Shown here: positions 42,557 to 46,374 of the stretch, one piece after another
Layout of the letters: each line of letters opens with the position of its first letter
Numbering within the stretch: the stretch's first letter is position 1
Source: an uncultured Candidatus Saccharibacteria bacterium
GTDB taxonomy: Bacteria > Patescibacteriota > Doudnabacteria > UBA920 > O2-02-FULL-48-8
DNA length: 64,000 nt
Assembly (NCBI GenBank): GCA_964605735.1
Contig: CAZSDS010000001.1
Coordinates: 340,813 to 404,812 of the forward strand
Reading direction: 5' to 3'
Made by a program: the position numbers and the translations under genes
Notes under the pieces: generated by a model
Database searches by the model: none
The model's input: only the letters and a program-made list of their open reading frames with translations
What the model was told of the DNA's origin: nothing

Positions 42557-42985
42557 TCAGTTTAACTGGGATGTACAAGACGGACAGCGGGTCGCCTGAA
42601 GATTGATCGGAGTGAAACAATATGGGCAACTTTTTGTGTTTGGAGCTGGTTTTGGTTTGTTCCTAAACTTGTTAATCTGCCTGACCATCAGGAATATAAC
42701 AAAAGCTATAATCAGGAAATTAATGGTCGCGTTTATGAACAGCCCGTAGTTGAGGGTGGGGACGCCCGCCTGCTTTGCTTCTGCCAGTGTGCTATAAACT
42801 CCGCTCCCGAGATTAAAAAACAAATTGCTAAAATCCACCTTTCCAACAATTACCCCAAGCGGCGGCATGACCACATCATTAACCAGCGAATCCACAATTT
42901 TCCCGAATGCCGCACCGATTATGACACCTACAGCCAAATCAATGGCATTTCCTTTTACGGCAAATTCTTTAAATTCTTTCAGCAT
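42557..42985 (-). CDS. mscL: large-conductance mechanosensitive channel MscL with C-terminal CxxC-x12-CxxC tail
   Basis: [31 protein letters not shown] is the canonical MscL N-terminus/TM1; C-terminus [21 protein letters not shown]; SD AAGGAG 5 nt upstream. Confidence 0.9.
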
Positions 42986-43111: not shown

Positions 43112-43510
43112 TTAGAACCGCGGACCTGTGCCCATGTTTGTGGTGTTCATAGGCGCTGGTGCAGAAGATTTGCTGGCAAAGCCTGCATAAAGCAGCAACA
43201 GAGTCAAGCCAACGTGCAACCAGTTATCCGCGTTGTTGATCTCCATCAAACCAAGCAGTTTCTCATCCGTGCCCGTGATAAAGCCGAGCACGGCCACTAA
43301 CAAATAAATCACACCGAATATCCTGGCGTAGGTTCTTGCTGAGGATTCGCCCATTGCAGCCATAGCCAAAGCTACAAGCCCTGAAAGCAAGTGGACGATG
43401 TTGTGGACTGCGTCAACTTCAAAGATCCCAAGAACCGGGTCATTGAAGAATCCCAAAACACCAACCACCACAAAAACCACACCCAAGATCATTACGATTG
43501 TTTTTGCCAT
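43112..43510 (-). CDS. DUF4383-like small membrane protein (4 TM)
   Basis: 132 aa; MAKTIVMILGVVFVVVGVLGFF...NIVHLLSG pattern typical of the DUF4383 family (assignment from memory of the family signature). Confidence 0.6.
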   Translation of the reverse strand: MAKTIVMILGVVFVVVGVLGFFNDPVLGIFEVDAVHNIVHLLSGLVALAMAAMGESSARTYARIFGVIYLLVAVLGFITGTDEKLLGLMEINNADNWLHVGLTLLLLYAGFASKSSAPAPMNTTNMGTGPRF

Positions 43511-43659
43511 ATTTTTCTAAATTAGTTTAGTAAATACGACCTTTAATGCTTATATTCAGTATATCTGAGAATAAAACGCCAGCAAATCTTTTATCCACAG
43601 CTAGACTGGATACGTTATTATTGTCGAACGCGAGCTAAAAACTGGCAATTAGCAATTTA

Positions 43660-43700
43660 AACAAAATAAAAAGCCCGCGGGTGAAAGATCCGTGGGCTAT
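43660..43700 (-). terminator. terminator downstream of coiled-coil gene
   Basis: agcccgcgg...ccgtgggct stem followed by T-rich run on the minus strand. Confidence 0.5.
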
Positions 43701-43705
43701 GTCTC

Positions 43706-43966
43706 TTACGCGGTGCTTGTGCGTCTTGCCTGGCTGAGCGCAGTCAGTCTGGCAAGTATCTCCTGGGAGCGTTTTTGGTCGCTTTCCTTGAGGTTCCGGA
43801 GACGCTCAATATCAACCTGGTTCGTGGCCTGGAGGTCGCTGATGCGCGACTCCAAGTGAGTTCTGTAATTCTTGGGAAGACCATCCTTTTTGGCTTTCTC
43901 CAGCTGGCGCTGAAGTTTTTGAATTTCCCTGGTGCGATCTTCAATCGCATGCTCAAGCCGCGGCAT
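43706..43966 (-). CDS. hypothetical coiled-coil protein
   Basis: 86 aa, heptad-rich (LQRQLEKAKK..., ERLRNLKESDQKRSQEIL); SD AAGGAGG 7 nt upstream of ATG. Confidence 0.55.
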   Translation of the reverse strand: MPRLEHAIEDRTREIQKLQRQLEKAKKDGLPKNYRTHLESRISDLQATNQVDIERLRNLKESDQKRSQEILARLTALSQARRTSTA

Positions 43967-44226
43967 AAGCTTTCCTCCTTTCTGTAACGTTGTGTGGATC
44001 TATCCATCAAAAAACCGACCATCTGGCCGGGTCTTCATAGGATCTGTTTCTATCTGGAACTTACCTTTTCCTATTTGAACCCGCGCGGACAGGGACCATG
44101 GCAAAGTAGCCGAGGACCATGCGAATAGTCCAGGTGCACTTGGCAATGAGTTGGTTCAAATGAAGAAAATTCATATGTGTTGTTAACACCTCTGCAATTA
44201 TATCATCTGGCAAATAACCGGGTCAA

Positions 44227-44258
44227 ATTGCCAATAAAAAAGCTGACGATAACCGTCT
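44227..44258 (-). terminator. rho-independent terminator downstream of the Cys-rich small ORF
   Basis: gctgacga-taaccgtc-tcgtcagc followed on the minus strand by TTTTTT. Confidence 0.65.
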
Positions 44259-44277
44259 CGTCAGCAAAATAGTTTGA

Positions 44278-44472
44278 TCAGTCTCCCCAGGACCACAGTG
44301 GCCTGCATTTTCCCGGATCAGGGTGCAAAAAAAGCATGCAGCAGGGCCCCAGGGCGAGCACATGGGGATAAGCCACCAGCCCGCAGGAACAACACCTAAC
44401 CTTCCCGTCCTTGGTAGGTGCAGTTTTTTCATGCGTCCCAATCGCAGTTCCCGAAATCTGATCAGTCTTCAT
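44278..44472 (-). CDS. candidate small Cys/His-rich protein (64 aa)
   Basis: AAGGAGG with 5-nt spacer before ATG (44470-44472): MKTDQISGTAIGTHEKTAPTKDGKVRCCSCGLVAYPHVLALGPCCMLFLHPDPGKCRPLWSWGD; 6 Cys; GC-rich codons; dedicated terminator. Confidence 0.45.
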   Translation of the reverse strand: MKTDQISGTAIGTHEKTAPTKDGKVRCCSCGLVAYPHVLALGPCCMLFLHPDPGKCRPLWSWGD

Positions 44473-44659
44473 TCTACCCTCCTTAACAAACAAAAAACCG
44501 GCTTTTGGCCGGACTGTTCAATGTGCACTTGGCAACAGAAAATCAGCCGACCTTAGTCGGTAAAATAAAACCAGAAATGATTCTGAGAAATAACTGATTT
44601 CATGTTGCTCTAATTATACATGAAGCAAATAAATCCAGTCAATCTTTGCGTTGGCAAGA

Positions 44660-44690
44660 AAAAGACCAAGCCAGGGCTTGGTCTGAAAGG
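44660..44690 (-). terminator. strong hairpin + T-run about 220 nt downstream of parB
   Basis: agaccaagcc-agg-ggcttggtct perfect 10-bp stem followed by TTTTCTTG on the minus strand. Confidence 0.55.
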
Positions 44691-44910
44691 AAGATGCGCG
44701 GGGCATCAGTAGTCGTCGCCACCCGCGAGGGTGAGAGGCTTTTTAGCCGGGAGCTTTGGTTCGTCTGCCGGTGCAACTGGCGGGACGGGTTTCTGCTGCG
44801 GCTGTTCGTCCGCCGACTGAGGAACCTGATCCGCCCTGTCTTCATGCCTTGGGTTCAAGGCATGGAGAAAAGAAGCATGATACATTGCTTACCCCCTTGA
44901 TTGAGCCATT

Positions 44911-45876
44911 CTACTCGAGTTTGTGCATCTTGTCCAGGAAGGAATTCAGCTCTTCCTGGGAGAAAAATTCGATGGTAATTTTACCTGACTCTCCATTCTT
45001 TTGAACGCGAACCTTGGTCCCTAATTTCCCCCGCAATTCAGATTCAATAGCCTGCAGTTCAGGGTCGGAGTTGGGGCGCTGACCTTTAATTTGCTTAGGC
45101 CTTTCCATGATCTCACGAACCCGGTCCTCCACTTGCCTGACTGTCAGGTTCTCTGCTTTTATCATGTCGAACATAGCCAGCTGTTTTTCCATCCCAATCA
45201 ATCCCAAGATGGCCCGGCCGTGTCCTTCGCTGATCTCTGCTTCCGCAATTGCCCTCTGAATTTTCAATGGCAAATTCAGCAAACGAATCATGTTTGTGAC
45301 TGTGGTGCGGCCTTTACCGACTTTCTTGGCAACTTCTTCTTGAGTAAGTTTATACTGGTCAATCAACTGCTGGTAAGCCTGGGCCTCTTCAATCGGATCC
45401 AGGTTATGACGCTGTATGTTTTCGATCAACGCAAGCTCGAGCTTCTGCTGTTCTTCCATTGCATCGCGGACAATTGCCGGGACTTTTGTCAGGCCGGCTA
45501 ATTGCGAAGCGCGCCAGCGCCGTTCACCCACAATGATCTGGTAATTGTCGTCTTTGGTTGGAACAACTACAAGCGGCTGTAAAATGCCATGCTCTTTGAT
45601 GGAATTAGCCAGCTCCTGCAAATATTCTTCTTTGAAAACTTTGCGGGGCTGCCATGGATTTGGCTGGATCTTACTGACTTCAATTTCAGTAAGATTCTGG
45701 CCGGCTGGAGAGGCTGGCTGTGGAGTTGTCGCTGGCTGGTGGATTGGCTCAGGTGAGCTGATTGTCGGTGTTGGGGCAGGAGTTGTGCTTTGTGTTTCGT
45801 CCATATTAAGAGAGCCTTTTAGGCTTTGATAAGGCTGTAATTCTAAATCATCTTGTAAATCACTGGCGTCTGGCAT
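44911..45876 (-). CDS. parB: ParB/Spo0J-family partition protein with P/T-rich N-terminal extension (no adjacent parA)
   Basis: ParB N-domain motif VGERRWRA, HTH region and C-terminal dimerisation region; the first ~80 aa are low-complexity P/T/S-rich. Confidence 0.85.
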   Translation of the reverse strand: MPDASDLQDDLELQPYQSLKGSLNMDETQSTTPAPTPTISSPEPIHQPATTPQPASPAGQNLTEIEVSKIQPNPWQPRKVFKEEYLQELANSIKEHGILQPLVVVPTKDDNYQIIVGERRWRASQLAGLTKVPAIVRDAMEEQQKLELALIENIQRHNLDPIEEAQAYQQLIDQYKLTQEEVAKKVGKGRTTVTNMIRLLNLPLKIQRAIAEAEISEGHGRAILGLIGMEKQLAMFDMIKAENLTVRQVEDRVREIMERPKQIKGQRPNSDPELQAIESELRGKLGTKVRVQKNGESGKITIEFFSQEELNSFLDKMHKLE

Positions 45877-46130: not shown

Positions 46131-46249
46131 ATTGGTGCCGCTGGACGTTTGATCGGCGTTCGGTGTCGTCCTGTGTTAATAATCAAAATCTATTTGCAAA
46201 TCCATCAGGACTAACCTCACTTCTGCCCGTTCGATCATTTTTATTGCAC

Positions 46250-46287
46250 CAAAAAAACATCCAATTCGGATGCTTTAGATGTTTTTT
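46250..46287 (-). terminator. terminator immediately 3' of tRNA-Leu
   Basis: aaaaaaacatc...gatgttttttt 11-bp inverted repeat directly after the tRNA CCA end. Confidence 0.65.
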
Positions 46288-46374
46288 TGGTGCCGCTGGA
46301 CGGAGTCGAACCGTCATGAGCGTAAGCCCACACGATTTTGAGTCGTGCGTGTCTGCCAGTTCCACCACAGCGGC
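46288..46374 (-). tRNA. tRNA-Leu (anticodon CAA), 87 nt with encoded CCA
   Basis: Minus-strand sequence GCCGCTG...CAGCGGCACCA folds as a cloverleaf: 7-bp acceptor stem, anticodon loop CTCAAAA, long variable arm, T-arm GGTTCGACTCC. Confidence 0.9.

What the first reader, a model, noticed from the sequence alone, without database searches (positions are those of the whole stretch)
44130..44540. GC-rich non-coding island with a strongly signalled Cys/His-rich 64-aa ORF flanked by 13-nt direct repeats
Between the coiled-coil gene and parB lie about 900 bp with almost no long ORFs. Inside is a minus-strand ORF (44278..44472) with a perfect AAGGAGG-5nt-ATG start and a dedicated hairpin + T6 terminator, encoding MKTDQISGTAIGTHEKTAPTKDGKVRCCSCGLVAYPHVLALGPCCMLFLHPDPGKCRPLWSWGD (6 Cys, 3 His, hydrophilic leader-like N-terminus). 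The unit is bracketed by the direct repeat GTGCACTTGGCAA (44136-44148 and 44523-44535), and its GC content looks higher than that of flanking genes. Candidates: a metal-binding/redox mini-protein, a precursor peptide of a modified peptide (no modifying enzymes nearby, which argues against a classical RiPP cluster), or a small mobile/acquired cassette.
Basis: seen in the sequence. Interest (0 to 1): 0.55.

Follow-up and report, generated by a model that had tools for sequence, protein, structure and literature searches.

The report
Small ORF behind a leader-peptide attenuator
The Cys-rich 64-codon ORF is real as an ORF but has no relatives; the conserved feature is the leader RNA in front of it, which in Doudnabacteria (candidate phyla radiation, CPR) relatives looks like a ribosome-sensing terminator switch placed before fast-evolving small genes.

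Summary
The ORF (44278..44472, minus), its AAGGAGG-5 nt-ATG start, its terminator and the two exact 13-mers are all present. The interval is not GC-rich overall (0.477 against 0.464 for the window); only the ORF body is (0.554). A local 13-mer repeat is expected 0.56 times per 64 kb and no relative has it, so a cassette with target-site repeats is not supported.

The parB-to-DUF4383 gap holds two tandem minus-strand units. Each has a near-consensus sigma-70 promoter, a micro-ORF, an intrinsic terminator, a strong Shine-Dalgarno (SD) site, a small ORF and a second terminator. Both leaders are conserved downstream of parB in about 15 distinct Doudnabacteria-like loci; the downstream small ORFs are not.

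The leader before the 64-aa ORF has an invariant AUG about 3 nt from the predicted start, an in-frame aromatic codon cluster (HFWFYF) and covarying, mutually exclusive helices. This fits ribosome-mediated transcription attenuation.

The 64-aa protein has no homologue, family or fold match. Its C-terminal PLW tail occurs in 4 of 17 ORFs in the same slot and in none of 798 other ORFs. It is probably a real, attenuator-controlled, fast-evolving small protein of unknown role.

The parts
44613..44642 (-). Promoter of unit A: TTGACT, 18 nt, TATAAT
   Evidence: Matches 11 of 12 consensus positions. A TTGAC-type promoter sits at the same place in nearly all related loci. The -10 box is usually 9 nt from the ATG (range 6-11), with a purine at position 7 in all 11 loci I inspected by eye.
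44553..44603 (-). Micro-ORF A (putative leader peptide) MKSVISQNHFWFYFTD plus stop. It has no SD, and its AUG is about 3 nt from the predicted transcription start.
   Evidence: The ATG is present in all 19 type A leaders. The TGG is in frame in 17 of 17, although its distance from the ATG varies from 24 to 36 nt. Aromatic codons fill 70 of 102 positions in frame 0, against 20 and 24 in the other frames and 47.6 +/- 3.2 in composition-matched shuffles.
44492..44609 (-). Type A leader RNA (attenuator). P0 pairs 44608-44594 with 44546-44532. P1 pairs 44560-44556 with 44551-44547. The antiterminator pairs GGUCGGCUG (44551-44543) with CAGUCCGGCC (44516-44507). The terminator stem is 44512-44498 and the U-run 44497-44492.
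   Evidence: MFE -38.6 kcal/mol, z -4.3. A covariance model built only from other genomes hits here at 33.5 bits, E 6e-4. Covariation results are, and the ribosome-mask folding.
44523..44535 (+). 13-mer copy 2. On the RNA it reads UUGCCAAGUGCAC and lies in the variable linker/P2 loop of leader A, overlapping the last 4 nt of the P0 3' strand.
   Evidence: The homologous stretch in relatives has a different sequence.
44478..44484 (-). Shine-Dalgarno AAGGAGG of the 64-aa ORF, starting 8 nt after the attenuator U-run
   Evidence: An SD 8-25 nt after the U-run is present in all but two of the type A units (L122 gaps of 194 and 129 nt). No promoter-like site lies between the terminator and the SD.
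44278..44472 (-). 64-aa Cys/His-rich ORF (the finding), ending in RPLWSWGD
   Evidence: No homologue was found. The codon-usage score is -0.07, between coding and non-coding values. The PLW tail is shared with ORFs in the same slot.
44236..44265 (-). Intrinsic terminator of the 64-aa ORF (8-bp stem plus T6)
44197..44226 (-). Promoter of unit B: TTGACC, 18 nt, TGaTATAAT
   Evidence: Matches 11 of 12 positions and has an extended -10.
44061..44174 (-). Micro-ORF B, MNFLHLNQLIAKCTWTIRMVLGYFAMVPVRAGSNRKR plus stop. It contains 13-mer copy 1 (44134-44146, codons I-A-K-C-T).
   Evidence: ORFs of 33-37 codons lie at the same place in 7 type B leaders and share a ..Q.ILG..VPV.VGS.. pattern.
44009..44180 (-). 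Type B leader RNA. The 5' UUUGAACC pairs with GGUUCAAAU at the end of the ORF. The GUCGGUUCA-type segment is complementary to the 5' flank and stem of the terminator (44030-44015, U-run 44014-44009).
   Evidence: nhmmer E 8e-34. The putative antiterminator is 94% paired in 8 sequences, but it is conserved rather than covarying.
43706..43966 (-). 86-aa coiled-coil ORF behind leader B (SD AAGGAGG at 43980-43974), with its terminator at 43672-43698
   Evidence: The PDB search returns only generic coiled coils.

Best explanation
The finding sits inside two tandem regulatory units downstream of parB in a Doudnabacteria-like (CPR) chromosome. The 64-aa ORF is the output gene of the first unit.

Shown from sequence and comparison:
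- A near-consensus promoter starts a ~115-nt leader.
- The first codons of the leader form a 16-codon ORF rich in aromatic codons (HFWFYF).
- The leader can fold in mutually exclusive ways. In one, the AUG region (P0) and hairpin P1 sequester the segment GGUCGGCUG. In the other, that segment pairs with the 5' half of the terminator hairpin, acting as an antiterminator. The terminator plus U6 ends 8 nt before the SD of the 64-aa ORF, which has no promoter of its own.

Inferred mechanism, ribosome-mediated transcription attenuation:
- With no translation, or when the ribosome runs to the stop codon in or next to P1, the terminator forms and the 64-aa ORF stays off.
- When the ribosome stalls on the Phe/Trp/Tyr codons, it covers the P1 5' strand. 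The freed segment captures the terminator 5' strand, RNA polymerase reads through, and the 64-aa protein is made.
- The stall could come from scarce charged aromatic tRNAs or from general translation stress.

Unit B (a 37-codon ORF, a terminator and then the 86-aa coiled-coil ORF) has an analogous layout.

The 64-aa product is probably a real, fast-evolving small protein. Its only conserved feature is a C-terminal P-L-W-x-x-G tail, and its biochemical role is unknown. The 13-mer direct repeat is incidental.
For: Architecture: the promoters, terminators and SD sites are.

Conservation of leaders, not ORFs:
- blastn matches both leaders in L001, whose ParB is 79% identical, while tblastn finds nothing for the 64-aa peptide.
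- Type A and/or type B leaders follow parB in about 15 distinct loci with ParB identity of 65% or more. None was detected in the more distant loci by nhmmer.

Structure:
- Covariance model R1, built from 8 other genomes, recovers the window leader over its full length at 33.5 bits.
- On 16 sequences, P0, P1 and the terminator are 92% paired. 13 of 23 pairs change on both sides, 0 of 500 shuffles reach this, and slid-partner controls reach at most 42%.
- The antiterminator is 83% paired, with 4 of 9 pairs changing on both sides. Column 148 covaries with both its terminator partner (161) and its antiterminator partner (104).

Translation of the micro-ORF:
- The ATG is invariant.
- The TGG is in frame in 17 of 17 leaders, with ATG-to-TGG distances of 24, 27, 30, 33 and 36 nt.
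- Aromatic codons fill 70 of 102 positions in frame 0, against 20 and 24 in the other frames. TTT/TTC and TAT/TAC synonymous variation is present.
- The stop codon lies in segment 2 in most leaders.

Switch behaviour in silico. The energy gained when the terminator 5' strand pairs upstream averages -9.3 kcal/mol with a ribosome on the aromatic codons, -6.1 free, -2.2 at the stop, and -3.7 with shuffled upstream sequence. For the window the values are -10.7, -4.8 and -1.4, against -7.7 for the terminator. The potential collapses 2-4 codons after the Trp codon.

Codon-to-gene anecdote: a type A variant with Lys-Lys in place of the aromatic codons sits directly before an AA_kinase+ACT (aspartokinase-type) gene in L004.

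Reality of the 64-aa ORF:
- A strong-SD ORF of 40-126 aa fills the slot in the related loci.
- A PLW tail occurs in 4 of 17 slot ORFs and 0 of 798 other ORFs of 40 aa or more, written as CCA CTG, CCG CTT and CCG CTC.
Against: - There are no expression data of any kind.
- The predicted start leaves a ~3-nt 5' UTR without an SD, so translation of micro-ORF A is assumed rather than shown.
- A dN/dS-type test is weak: 0.68 in frame against 0.85-1.10 out of frame, on saturated sequences.
- Frame +2 is also often open.
- The 'VG-stop' ending of the peptides is explained by the RNA pairing.
- The covariation counts come from an alignment fitted to the model, and the sequences are related, so the statistics are inflated.
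- In the folding test, the untranslated state still allows a moderate antiterminator (-6 kcal/mol).
- The regulated genes are not aromatic amino-acid genes, so the physiological logic is unclear.
- The Lys-codon/aspartokinase link is a single case with only two Lys codons.
- The 64-aa ORF has atypical codon usage (-0.07, against 0.37 +/- 0.12 for genes), was not called on the source contig, and is not conserved in any available relative.
- The PLW motif was defined after seeing these sequences.
Confidence: 0.55

Rival explanations
1. The leaders are untranslated structured RNAs. They could be a riboswitch-like or protein-binding cis-regulator, or stand-alone small RNA genes that end at their own terminator. 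On this view the apparent micro-ORF is a by-product of RNA constraints.
For: P0 covaries strongly and includes the AUG and the 'VG-stop' codons. The peptide sequences are poorly conserved. There is no SD, and the AUG is probably not at the exact 5' end. The promoters and terminators are strong, as is typical of small RNA genes. Attenuator-derived RNAs are known to act in trans (rnTrpL, PMC6614838).
Against: No Rfam family matches, even at E up to 10. The AUG is invariant although its pairing partners vary. All length changes between the ATG and the TGG are multiples of 3. The aromatic-codon enrichment is specific to frame 0 and includes synonymous variation. The stop codon is consistently placed in the switching segment.
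Confidence: 0.2
2. The 64-aa ORF is not a functional protein. Only the act of translating something after the leader matters, or only the leader RNA or peptide matters, and the ORF body drifts freely. That would explain why each genome has a different sequence.
For: No homologue exists in 5.8 billion clustered proteins or in 1.84 billion representatives. Codon usage is atypical and GC is high. The gene was not called on the source contig. Slot ORFs are unrelated between genomes whose ParB is 70-79% identical.
Against: A strong SD and an ORF of 40-126 codons are kept in the loci examined. A dedicated terminator follows the stop closely here, and similar hairpin-plus-T-run sequences can be seen by eye after the stop in some relatives (L004, L087, L089). 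The C-terminal PLW tail is confined to slot ORFs (4 of 17 against 0 of 798) and uses different codons. Some slot ORFs form a detectable family: L005/L083 at E 4.5e-13 and L083/L086 at E 2e-6.
Confidence: 0.2
3. The units are small-peptide modules rather than attenuators. They could be type I toxin-antitoxin-like mRNAs whose 5'-3' fold-back blocks translation of a small hydrophobic peptide (micro-ORF B especially), or genes for short signalling peptides.
For: Micro-ORF B encodes a 33-37-aa hydrophobic peptide with a basic tail. Long-range pairing of the start region with the ORF end appears in both leaders, as in hok-type mRNAs according to established knowledge. The type A peptides end in x-V-G, which loosely recalls short hydrophobic peptide pheromones; this is from memory.
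Against: The type A peptides are 16-26 aa and not hydrophobic. No antisense promoter or antisense RNA was detected. The terminator is followed at once by an SD-ORF without a promoter, which a toxin module does not need. PADLOC gives no hit.
Confidence: 0.05
4. The 64-aa ORF is the precursor of a modified peptide (RiPP), with the conserved C-terminal PLW tail as the recognition or modification site.
For: The sequence is Cys-rich. The body is hypervariable and a short motif is conserved. The tail contains Trp, and Trp crosslinks are known in some RiPPs; this is from memory.
Against: No radical-SAM enzyme, cyclase, dedicated protease or dedicated transporter was seen among the annotated ORFs of 130 aa or more between about 33 and 54 kb; these are EF-G, S7, S12, an M50 peptidase, a GGDEF-EAL protein, MscL, ParB, GlyA, an MFS transporter, LeuRS and TatD. 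Two further ORFs at 54.4-57.6 kb were not scanned. The other slot ORFs are not Cys-rich. The conserved part is a 6-residue tail rather than a leader.
Confidence: 0.04
5. A small mobile or acquired cassette inserted between the two 13-mers, which would be a target-site duplication.
For: The 13-mer repeat is exact and brackets the ORF. The ORF is GC-richer than the genome.
Against: The repeat count is within chance: 0.56 expected per window. The copies lie inside two different conserved elements, one in coding codons of micro-ORF B and one in a loop of leader A. Relatives without the 13-mer have the same promoter-leader-ORF layout. No terminal inverted repeats were found. There are no other copies of the unit in 64 kb. 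The neighbouring small ORFs outside the bracket are just as GC-rich.
Confidence: 0.02

Closest known systems
Classical ribosome-mediated transcription attenuators (trpL, pheL, hisL, thrL, leuL, ilvL leader peptides of Proteobacteria; also described for Actinobacteria, PMC1262725)
   Same: Both have a short leader ORF with a run of codons for the sensed amino acids. Both have alternative 1:2, 2:3 and 3:4 hairpins ending in an intrinsic terminator just before the regulated gene. In both, the stop codon is placed so that a finishing ribosome favours termination.
   Different: The leader ORF here has no SD and starts about 3 nt from the predicted 5' end. The codon run mixes Phe, Trp and Tyr. The regulated genes are orphan, hypervariable small ORFs rather than biosynthetic operons, with one aspartokinase exception in L004. 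The host is a CPR bacterium that is presumably auxotrophic. The units occur as a tandem array after parB.
Polycysteine leaderless short-ORF attenuators of mycobacteria (Canestrari et al., bioRxiv 10.1101/834739)
   Same: Both use a sensory short ORF at the very 5' end of the transcript without an SD. In both, ribosome stalling on a codon run remodels downstream RNA structure. Several independent units share one signal, which those authors call a 'ribulon'.
   Different: [quoted passage not shown] It has exact 5'-AUG leaderless starts and controls cysteine metabolism. Here the switch is a terminator/antiterminator pair, the 5' UTR is probably about 3 nt, and the targets have unknown function.
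Attenuator-derived trans-acting products (rnTrpL small RNA and peTrpL peptide of Sinorhizobium, PMC6614838 and PMC7298713)
   Same: A strong promoter plus terminator would release an abundant ~115-nt leader RNA and a 16-aa peptide that could have functions of their own.
   Different: No target or trans function can be inferred here, and there is no sequence similarity.
Drug-inducible leader-peptide attenuators of resistance genes (erm, cat and tet(M)-type leaders)
   Same: A short leader ORF whose ribosome stalling relieves a downstream block. The sensed signal is the state of the ribosome rather than a metabolite.
   Different: The downstream genes here are not resistance genes, and the leader peptides show no known arrest motif. 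This comparison is from memory and was not tested.

Membership tests
Ribosome-mediated (leader-peptide) transcription attenuator | A short ORF lies within the leader transcript upstream of the terminator. | tested here: met
   A 16-codon ORF runs from 44603. ORFs of 16-26 codons begin at an invariant ATG in all 19 type A leaders.
Ribosome-mediated (leader-peptide) transcription attenuator | A run of regulatory codons sits in frame, positioned so that a stalled ribosome masks segment 1 but not segment 2. | tested here: met
   Aromatic codons fill 70 of 102 positions in frame 0, against 20 and 24 out of frame. The in-silico antiterminator potential stays high up to the aromatic codons, peaks there in many leaders, and collapses 2-4 codons later.
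Ribosome-mediated (leader-peptide) transcription attenuator | Mutually exclusive anti-antiterminator, antiterminator and terminator helices end in a U-run. | tested here: met
   Covariation supports P0, P1 and the terminator (92% paired, 13 of 23 double changes) and the antiterminator (83% paired, with three-way covariation at column 148). The terminator was also found by the scan. Caveat: the alignment was fitted to the model.
Ribosome-mediated (leader-peptide) transcription attenuator | The regulated genes belong to the pathway of the sensed amino acid. | tested here: not met
   The downstream genes are orphan small ORFs without any family match. The only exception is the Lys-codon variant before an aspartokinase-type gene in L004.
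Ribosome-mediated (leader-peptide) transcription attenuator | The leader ORF is translated, and premature termination responds to tRNA charging. | not testable with these tools
   This needs Term-seq, Ribo-seq or reporter assays.
Leaderless short-ORF attenuator (mycobacterial type) | The transcript begins exactly at the A/G of the start codon. | tested here: inconclusive
   The -10 box is usually 9 nt from the ATG, with a conserved purine at position 7. This predicts a 3-nt 5' UTR rather than a true leaderless start. No transcription-start data exist.
Leaderless short-ORF attenuator (mycobacterial type) | Stalling unmasks the RBS of the downstream gene (translational control). | tested here: not met
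   Here the competing structure is an intrinsic terminator upstream of the SD, and the SD itself lies outside the helices.
RiPP precursor peptide | A modifying enzyme or dedicated protease/transporter lies in the same cluster. | tested here: not met
   Annotated neighbours between about 33 and 54 kb are housekeeping; the two ORFs at 54.4-57.6 kb were not scanned.
RiPP precursor peptide | A conserved leader (or follower) accompanies a variable core among homologous precursors. | tested here: inconclusive
   The body is variable and a 6-residue C-terminal PLW-x-x-G tail is shared by 4-6 slot ORFs. No recognisable leader is present.
Mobile cassette / MITE with target-site duplication | Direct repeats sit at the insertion boundaries, and an empty site exists in relatives. 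| tested here: not met
   The repeats lie inside conserved leaders. Relatives lack the 13-mer but keep the layout. The repeat is within chance expectation.
Mobile cassette / MITE with target-site duplication | Terminal inverted repeats and multiple genomic copies are present. | tested here: not met
   No terminal inverted repeats were found. There is a single copy in 64 kb.
Known structured RNA family (Rfam 15) | A match to a curated covariance model. | tested here: not met
   For 43400-45000 on both strands at E up to 10, only far sub-threshold hairpin-type matches to unrelated families appear, at or upstream of the promoter (one reaches 16 nt into the 5' end of leader A); none lies over the rest of the leaders or the ORF.

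The most novel reading that the evidence does not exclude
Doudnabacteria carry a small ribosome-directed regulon next to parB. It would be an array of leader-peptide attenuators that read aromatic-amino-acid supply or translation stress, a meaningful signal for a host-dependent auxotroph. In response they switch on a set of rapidly diversifying small proteins marked by shared C-terminal tails (PLW-x-x-G and GYGHGV). These proteins could be effectors or surface/host-interaction factors. The 64-aa Cys-rich protein would be this genome's version.
Probability: 0.2. Interest if true: 0.75.

Novelty: new variant of a known kind. Interest (0 to 1): 0.58.

Why it matters
Almost nothing is known about gene regulation in candidate phyla radiation (CPR) bacteria. 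My literature searches found no attenuator or leader-peptide element described for them.

A conserved, covarying leader that appears to couple ribosome stalling on aromatic codons to terminator readthrough would be a concrete, testable regulatory mechanism in this group. Its targets are orphan small proteins that differ between related genomes but keep a short C-terminal tail. That suggests a class of conditionally expressed, fast-evolving small proteins that standard annotation misses; the 64-aa ORF was not called on its source contig.

For the original finding, the result is partly deflationary. The direct repeats and the 'GC island' are incidental, and the ORF's chemistry (metal binding or redox) remains untestable.

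Tried and rejected
- Homology of the 64-aa peptide. The word-index search found nothing. Full HMMER against 1.84 billion representatives gave only two hits, both translated eukaryotic tandem repeats. tblastn against 80 loci found nothing. Pfam, NCBIfam, PADLOC and PDB gave nothing. The single-sequence AlphaFold2 model has pLDDT 53, so no fold search was run.
- Family of slot ORFs. The L083 slot ORF finds only itself in the database. A profile of the PLW-tail ORFs returned only those proteins and near-identical variants.
- Look-up of the 86-aa ORF to find strain variants returned no record. No relative closer than 79% ParB identity was available, so codon-level conservation of the 64-aa ORF could not be tested.
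- RNAalifold on plain MAFFT alignments of all type A leaders recovered only the terminator. A subgroup alignment and then a covariance model were needed.
- The dN/dS-style coding test on the micro-ORFs was uninformative because the sequences are saturated.
- Chorismate mutase lead for the 86-aa ORF. There are sub-threshold CM_2 and TIGR01806 hits, but the PDB search gives only generic coiled coils, so the lead was rejected.
- The 13-mer as a regulatory site. It is not conserved in any relative and is not palindromic, so it was rejected as a shared operator. Local gene conversion or chance remains possible.
Full report
**1. Checking the observation**

The minus-strand ORF 44278..44472 exists and translates to the quoted 64-aa peptide. 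AAGGAGG lies at 44484-44478, 5 nt before the ATG. An 8-bp hairpin followed by T6 lies at 44265-44242, starting 13 nt after the stop.

GTGCACTTGGCAA occurs exactly twice in the window, at 44134-44146 and 44523-44535.

The 'GC-rich island' does not hold at the scale claimed:
- 44130-44540 has GC 0.477 and the whole parB-to-coiled-coil gap 0.485, against 0.464 for the window.
- Only the ORF body is GC-rich (0.554). So are the flanking small ORFs (0.54 and 0.59), which lie outside the repeat bracket.

A local exact 13-mer repeat is not unusual. Simulated 64-kb sequences contain 0.56 such pairs on average, 44% contain at least one, and the real window has a second, unrelated pair.

**2. What is really in the gap**

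Read on the minus strand, the 945 bp between parB (44911..45876) and the 86-aa coiled-coil ORF form two tandem units.

| Element | Unit A | Unit B |
|---|---|---|
| Promoter | TTGACT-18-TATAAT, 44642-44613 | TTGACC-18-TATAAT, 44226-44197 |
| Micro-ORF | ATG at 44603, MKSVISQNHFWFYFTD | ATG at 44174, 37 codons |
| Leader terminator | stem 44512-44498 plus U6 | stem 44030-44015 plus U6 |
| SD | 8 nt after the U-run | AAGGAGG at 43980-43974 |
| Output ORF | the 64-aa ORF | the 86-aa ORF |
| Final terminator | 44265-44242 | 43698-43672 |

No promoter-like site lies between either leader terminator and the following SD. Both small ORFs must therefore be transcribed by readthrough.

One 13-mer lies in codons 10-14 of micro-ORF B. 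The other lies in the linker between the P0 3' strand and the terminator of leader A. These are non-equivalent positions.

**3. Origin and relatives**

ParB identifies the source as a Doudnabacteria-like CPR bacterium. The best matches are 79% (L001, L082, L083) and about 65-76% (Doudnabacteria MAGs and metagenome contigs). The source contig is in Logan (SRR7082976), where the gene caller did not call the 64-aa ORF.

The surrounding 24 kb is housekeeping. It holds EF-G, S7, S12, an M50 peptidase, a GGDEF-EAL protein, MscL, DUF4383, ParB, tRNA-Leu, PAP2, GlyA, an MFS transporter, Sua5, LeuRS and TatD.

**4. The leaders are conserved; the ORFs are not**

blastn of the gap against the loci matches leader A and leader B in L001, and part of leader A in L005 and L010. 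tblastn finds nothing for the 64-aa peptide.

Reading the DNA downstream of parB in every locus with ParB identity of 65% or more shows the same design:
- a TTGAC-type promoter;
- an ATG usually 9 nt (range 6-11) after the -10 box;
- a 16-26-codon ORF;
- hairpins, then a CCGRCC...GGYCGG terminator with a U-run;
- an SD 8-25 nt later in most units, followed by a small ORF of 40-126 aa.

Most loci have one or two 'type A' units followed by a longer 'type B' unit. nhmmer finds exactly one A and one B in the 64-kb window, and none in the more distant loci.

The downstream ORFs differ between genomes. Only L005, L083 and L086 form a detectable family (E 4.5e-13 and 2e-6).

**5. Structure of leader A**

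The window leader folds at -38.6 kcal/mol (z -4.3). The start-codon region pairs with the segment after hairpin P1 to form P0, and the terminator forms as well.

A covariance model was built only from eight leaders of the other subgroup. It recovers the window leader over its full length at 33.5 bits, E 6e-4, along with all other type A leaders.

On the resulting 16-sequence alignment:
- P0, P1 and the terminator are 92% paired.
- 13 of 23 pairs change on both sides.
- 0 of 500 shuffles reach this level.
- Slid-partner controls reach at most 42% paired.

For example, AUGAAUUUAACC pairs with GGUUAAGUUUGU in one subgroup, and AUGAAAUCAG pairs with CUGAUUUUCU in the window's subgroup.

A second helix is mutually exclusive with P1. 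It pairs the P1 3' strand and its neighbours with the terminator 5' strand. It is 83% paired, and 4 of 9 pairs change on both sides. Terminator column 148 covaries with both its terminator partner and this alternative partner. That is the signature of a terminator/antiterminator switch.

Caveats: the alignment was fitted to the model, and the sequences are related.

**6. Is the micro-ORF read?**

Evidence for translation:
- The ATG is present in all 19 leaders, although its pairing partners vary.
- The single TGG is in frame in 17 of 17 leaders, although its distance from the ATG takes the values 24, 27, 30, 33 and 36 nt.
- In the six codons around it, 70 of 102 frame-0 codons are aromatic. 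The other frames have 20 and 24, and composition-matched shuffles give 47.6 +/- 3.2. TTT/TTC and TAT/TAC alternate.
- The stop falls in the switching segment in most leaders.

Evidence against translation:
- There is no SD.
- A conserved purine 7 nt after the -10 box predicts a 3-nt 5' UTR rather than a true leaderless start.
- The dN/dS-type contrast is weak.
- Frame +2 is often open.

**7. Does the geometry work?**

I masked a ribosome footprint and asked how much energy the terminator 5' strand gains by pairing upstream before its 3' partner exists.

| State | Mean over 19 leaders (kcal/mol) | Window leader (kcal/mol) |
|---|---|---|
| Ribosome on the aromatic codons | -9.3 | -10.7 |
| No ribosome | -6.1 | -4.8 |
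| Ribosome at the stop | -2.2 | -1.4 |
| Shuffled upstream sequence (control) | -3.7 | -3.1 |
| Terminator hairpin itself | -10.3 | -7.7 |

Scanning the ribosome codon by codon shows that the potential collapses 2-4 codons after the Trp codon. This is the layout expected for a classical attenuator.

In L004, a type A variant in which Lys-Lys replaces the aromatic codons directly precedes an AA_kinase+ACT (aspartokinase-type) gene. This fits the model, but it is a single case.

**8. Leader B**

Leader B is conserved (nhmmer E 8e-34 for the window copy). It encodes a 33-37-aa hydrophobic peptide with a ..Q.ILG..VPV.VGS.. pattern.

Its GUCGGUUCA segment, at the end of the ORF, is complementary to UGAACCGAC, which forms the 5' flank and stem of the terminator. 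This pairing is 94% paired in 8 sequences, but it is conserved rather than covarying. Its 5' end pairs with the same segment. The logic looks analogous to leader A, but it is less well supported.

**9. The 64-aa ORF itself**

The ORF has no detectable relative by any sequence or fold method tried; the searches are listed under Tried and rejected.

Its codon-usage score is -0.07. That lies between true genes (0.37 +/- 0.12) and out-of-frame sequence (-0.61 +/- 0.26), and it is the best of its three frames.

Arguments that it is nevertheless a real gene:
- It has a strong SD and its own terminator.
- A comparable ORF is present in the same slot in the related loci.
- It shares a C-terminal tail with other slot ORFs: RPLWSWGD here, GPLWEGA in L004, HPLWMGS in L085 and DPLWN in L089, with SLFDHG (L087) and PAWDHG (L007) as looser forms. 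The tail is written with different codons.
- Among 815 ORFs of 40 aa or more in all six frames of 15 loci plus the whole window, a PLW tail occurs four times, and all four are ORFs directly behind a type A leader.

The motif was noticed after looking at these sequences, so this is suggestive rather than a formal test.

**10. Interpretation**

The best-supported reading is that leader A is a ribosome-mediated transcription attenuator and the 64-aa ORF is its output. The protein is probably real and fast-evolving, with unknown biochemical function.

The direct repeats are incidental:
- They are within chance expectation.
- They are absent from all relatives.
- They lie inside conserved elements rather than at cassette boundaries.

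A RiPP cluster and a mobile cassette are not supported. Metal binding cannot be assessed.

The main rival is that the leaders are untranslated structured RNAs or small RNA genes. It is weakened by the frame-specific signals but not excluded without expression data.

**11. Comparison with known systems**

The mechanism resembles the trp, phe and his leader-peptide attenuators. In placing the sensory ORF at the 5' end without an SD, it resembles the mycobacterial polycysteine leaderless short ORFs. According to that paper's abstract, however, those act by unmasking a ribosome-binding site rather than through a terminator.

It fails the usual membership criterion that the regulated genes belong to the pathway of the sensed amino acid. 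No Rfam family matches. Literature searches found nothing comparable for CPR bacteria or Doudnabacteria.

I therefore class it as a new variant of a known kind of system. Interest is moderate to good for the leaders and their orphan targets, and low for the repeat and GC observations that prompted the finding.

Noticed in passing
window 46132-46144 and 46287-46299: The exact 13-mer TTGGTGCCGCTGG occurs twice, 155 nt apart. The second copy covers the 3' acceptor/CCA end of tRNA-Leu(caa) at 46288-46374 (minus). This could be a remnant of an attachment-site duplication at a tRNA gene.
   Followed up: no
L004:6873-8444: A type A leader variant has a peptide with Lys-Lys (MNLQISQFVSKKGRHLVG) in place of the aromatic cluster. 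It lies directly upstream of a 477-aa AA_kinase+ACT (aspartokinase-type) gene. A second Lys-rich variant (MNSNSTQTKGVKKSGHIVG) is at L122:5047-5155.
   Followed up: partly
L001:7570-7650, L005:5177-5260, L008:7847-7940, L009:8389-8490, L089:4691-4795: After the type B terminator, these loci carry a 70-100-nt spacer that by eye contains a recurring stem (CUGAAUUCAG ... GAAUUCAG) around AGGCUUU..AUAGGA..GAGGCGU, before the SD of the next ORF. I did not align or fold it. This element is absent from the window.
   Followed up: no
L008:7941-8138, L010:7635-7844, L122:5300-5506: Small ORFs behind type B or B-like leaders (and one Lys-variant type A leader, in L122) end in a shared C-terminal motif, GYGHGV-stop (HPHGV-stop in L122). 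This is a second tail motif besides PLW-x-x-G.
   Followed up: no
window 43706-43966 (minus): The 86-aa coiled-coil ORF gives sub-threshold hits to chorismate mutase models (Pfam CM_2 E 0.014; TIGR01806 E 0.0021). This is tempting given the aromatic-codon leaders, but the PDB sequence search returns only generic coiled coils, so I treat the hits as spurious.
   Followed up: yes
window 44706-44885 (minus): A 59-aa Pro/Gln-rich ORF with its own SD lies between parB and leader A. A 13-bp hairpin sits inside its 5' part (44839-44868). tblastn finds no counterpart of the 59-aa ORF in the first 80 loci, and in several relatives leader A follows parB directly.
   Followed up: no
L009:6961-7060: A degenerate type A unit has the promoter, P2 hairpin, terminator and SD-ORF but no micro-ORF and no P0/P1. 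It may be a decayed or constitutively terminating copy.
   Followed up: no
window 42557-42985 (minus): MscL carries a C-terminal Cys-x2-Cys ... Cys-x2-Cys extension, with a weak double-zinc-ribbon hit (E 0.014).
   Followed up: no
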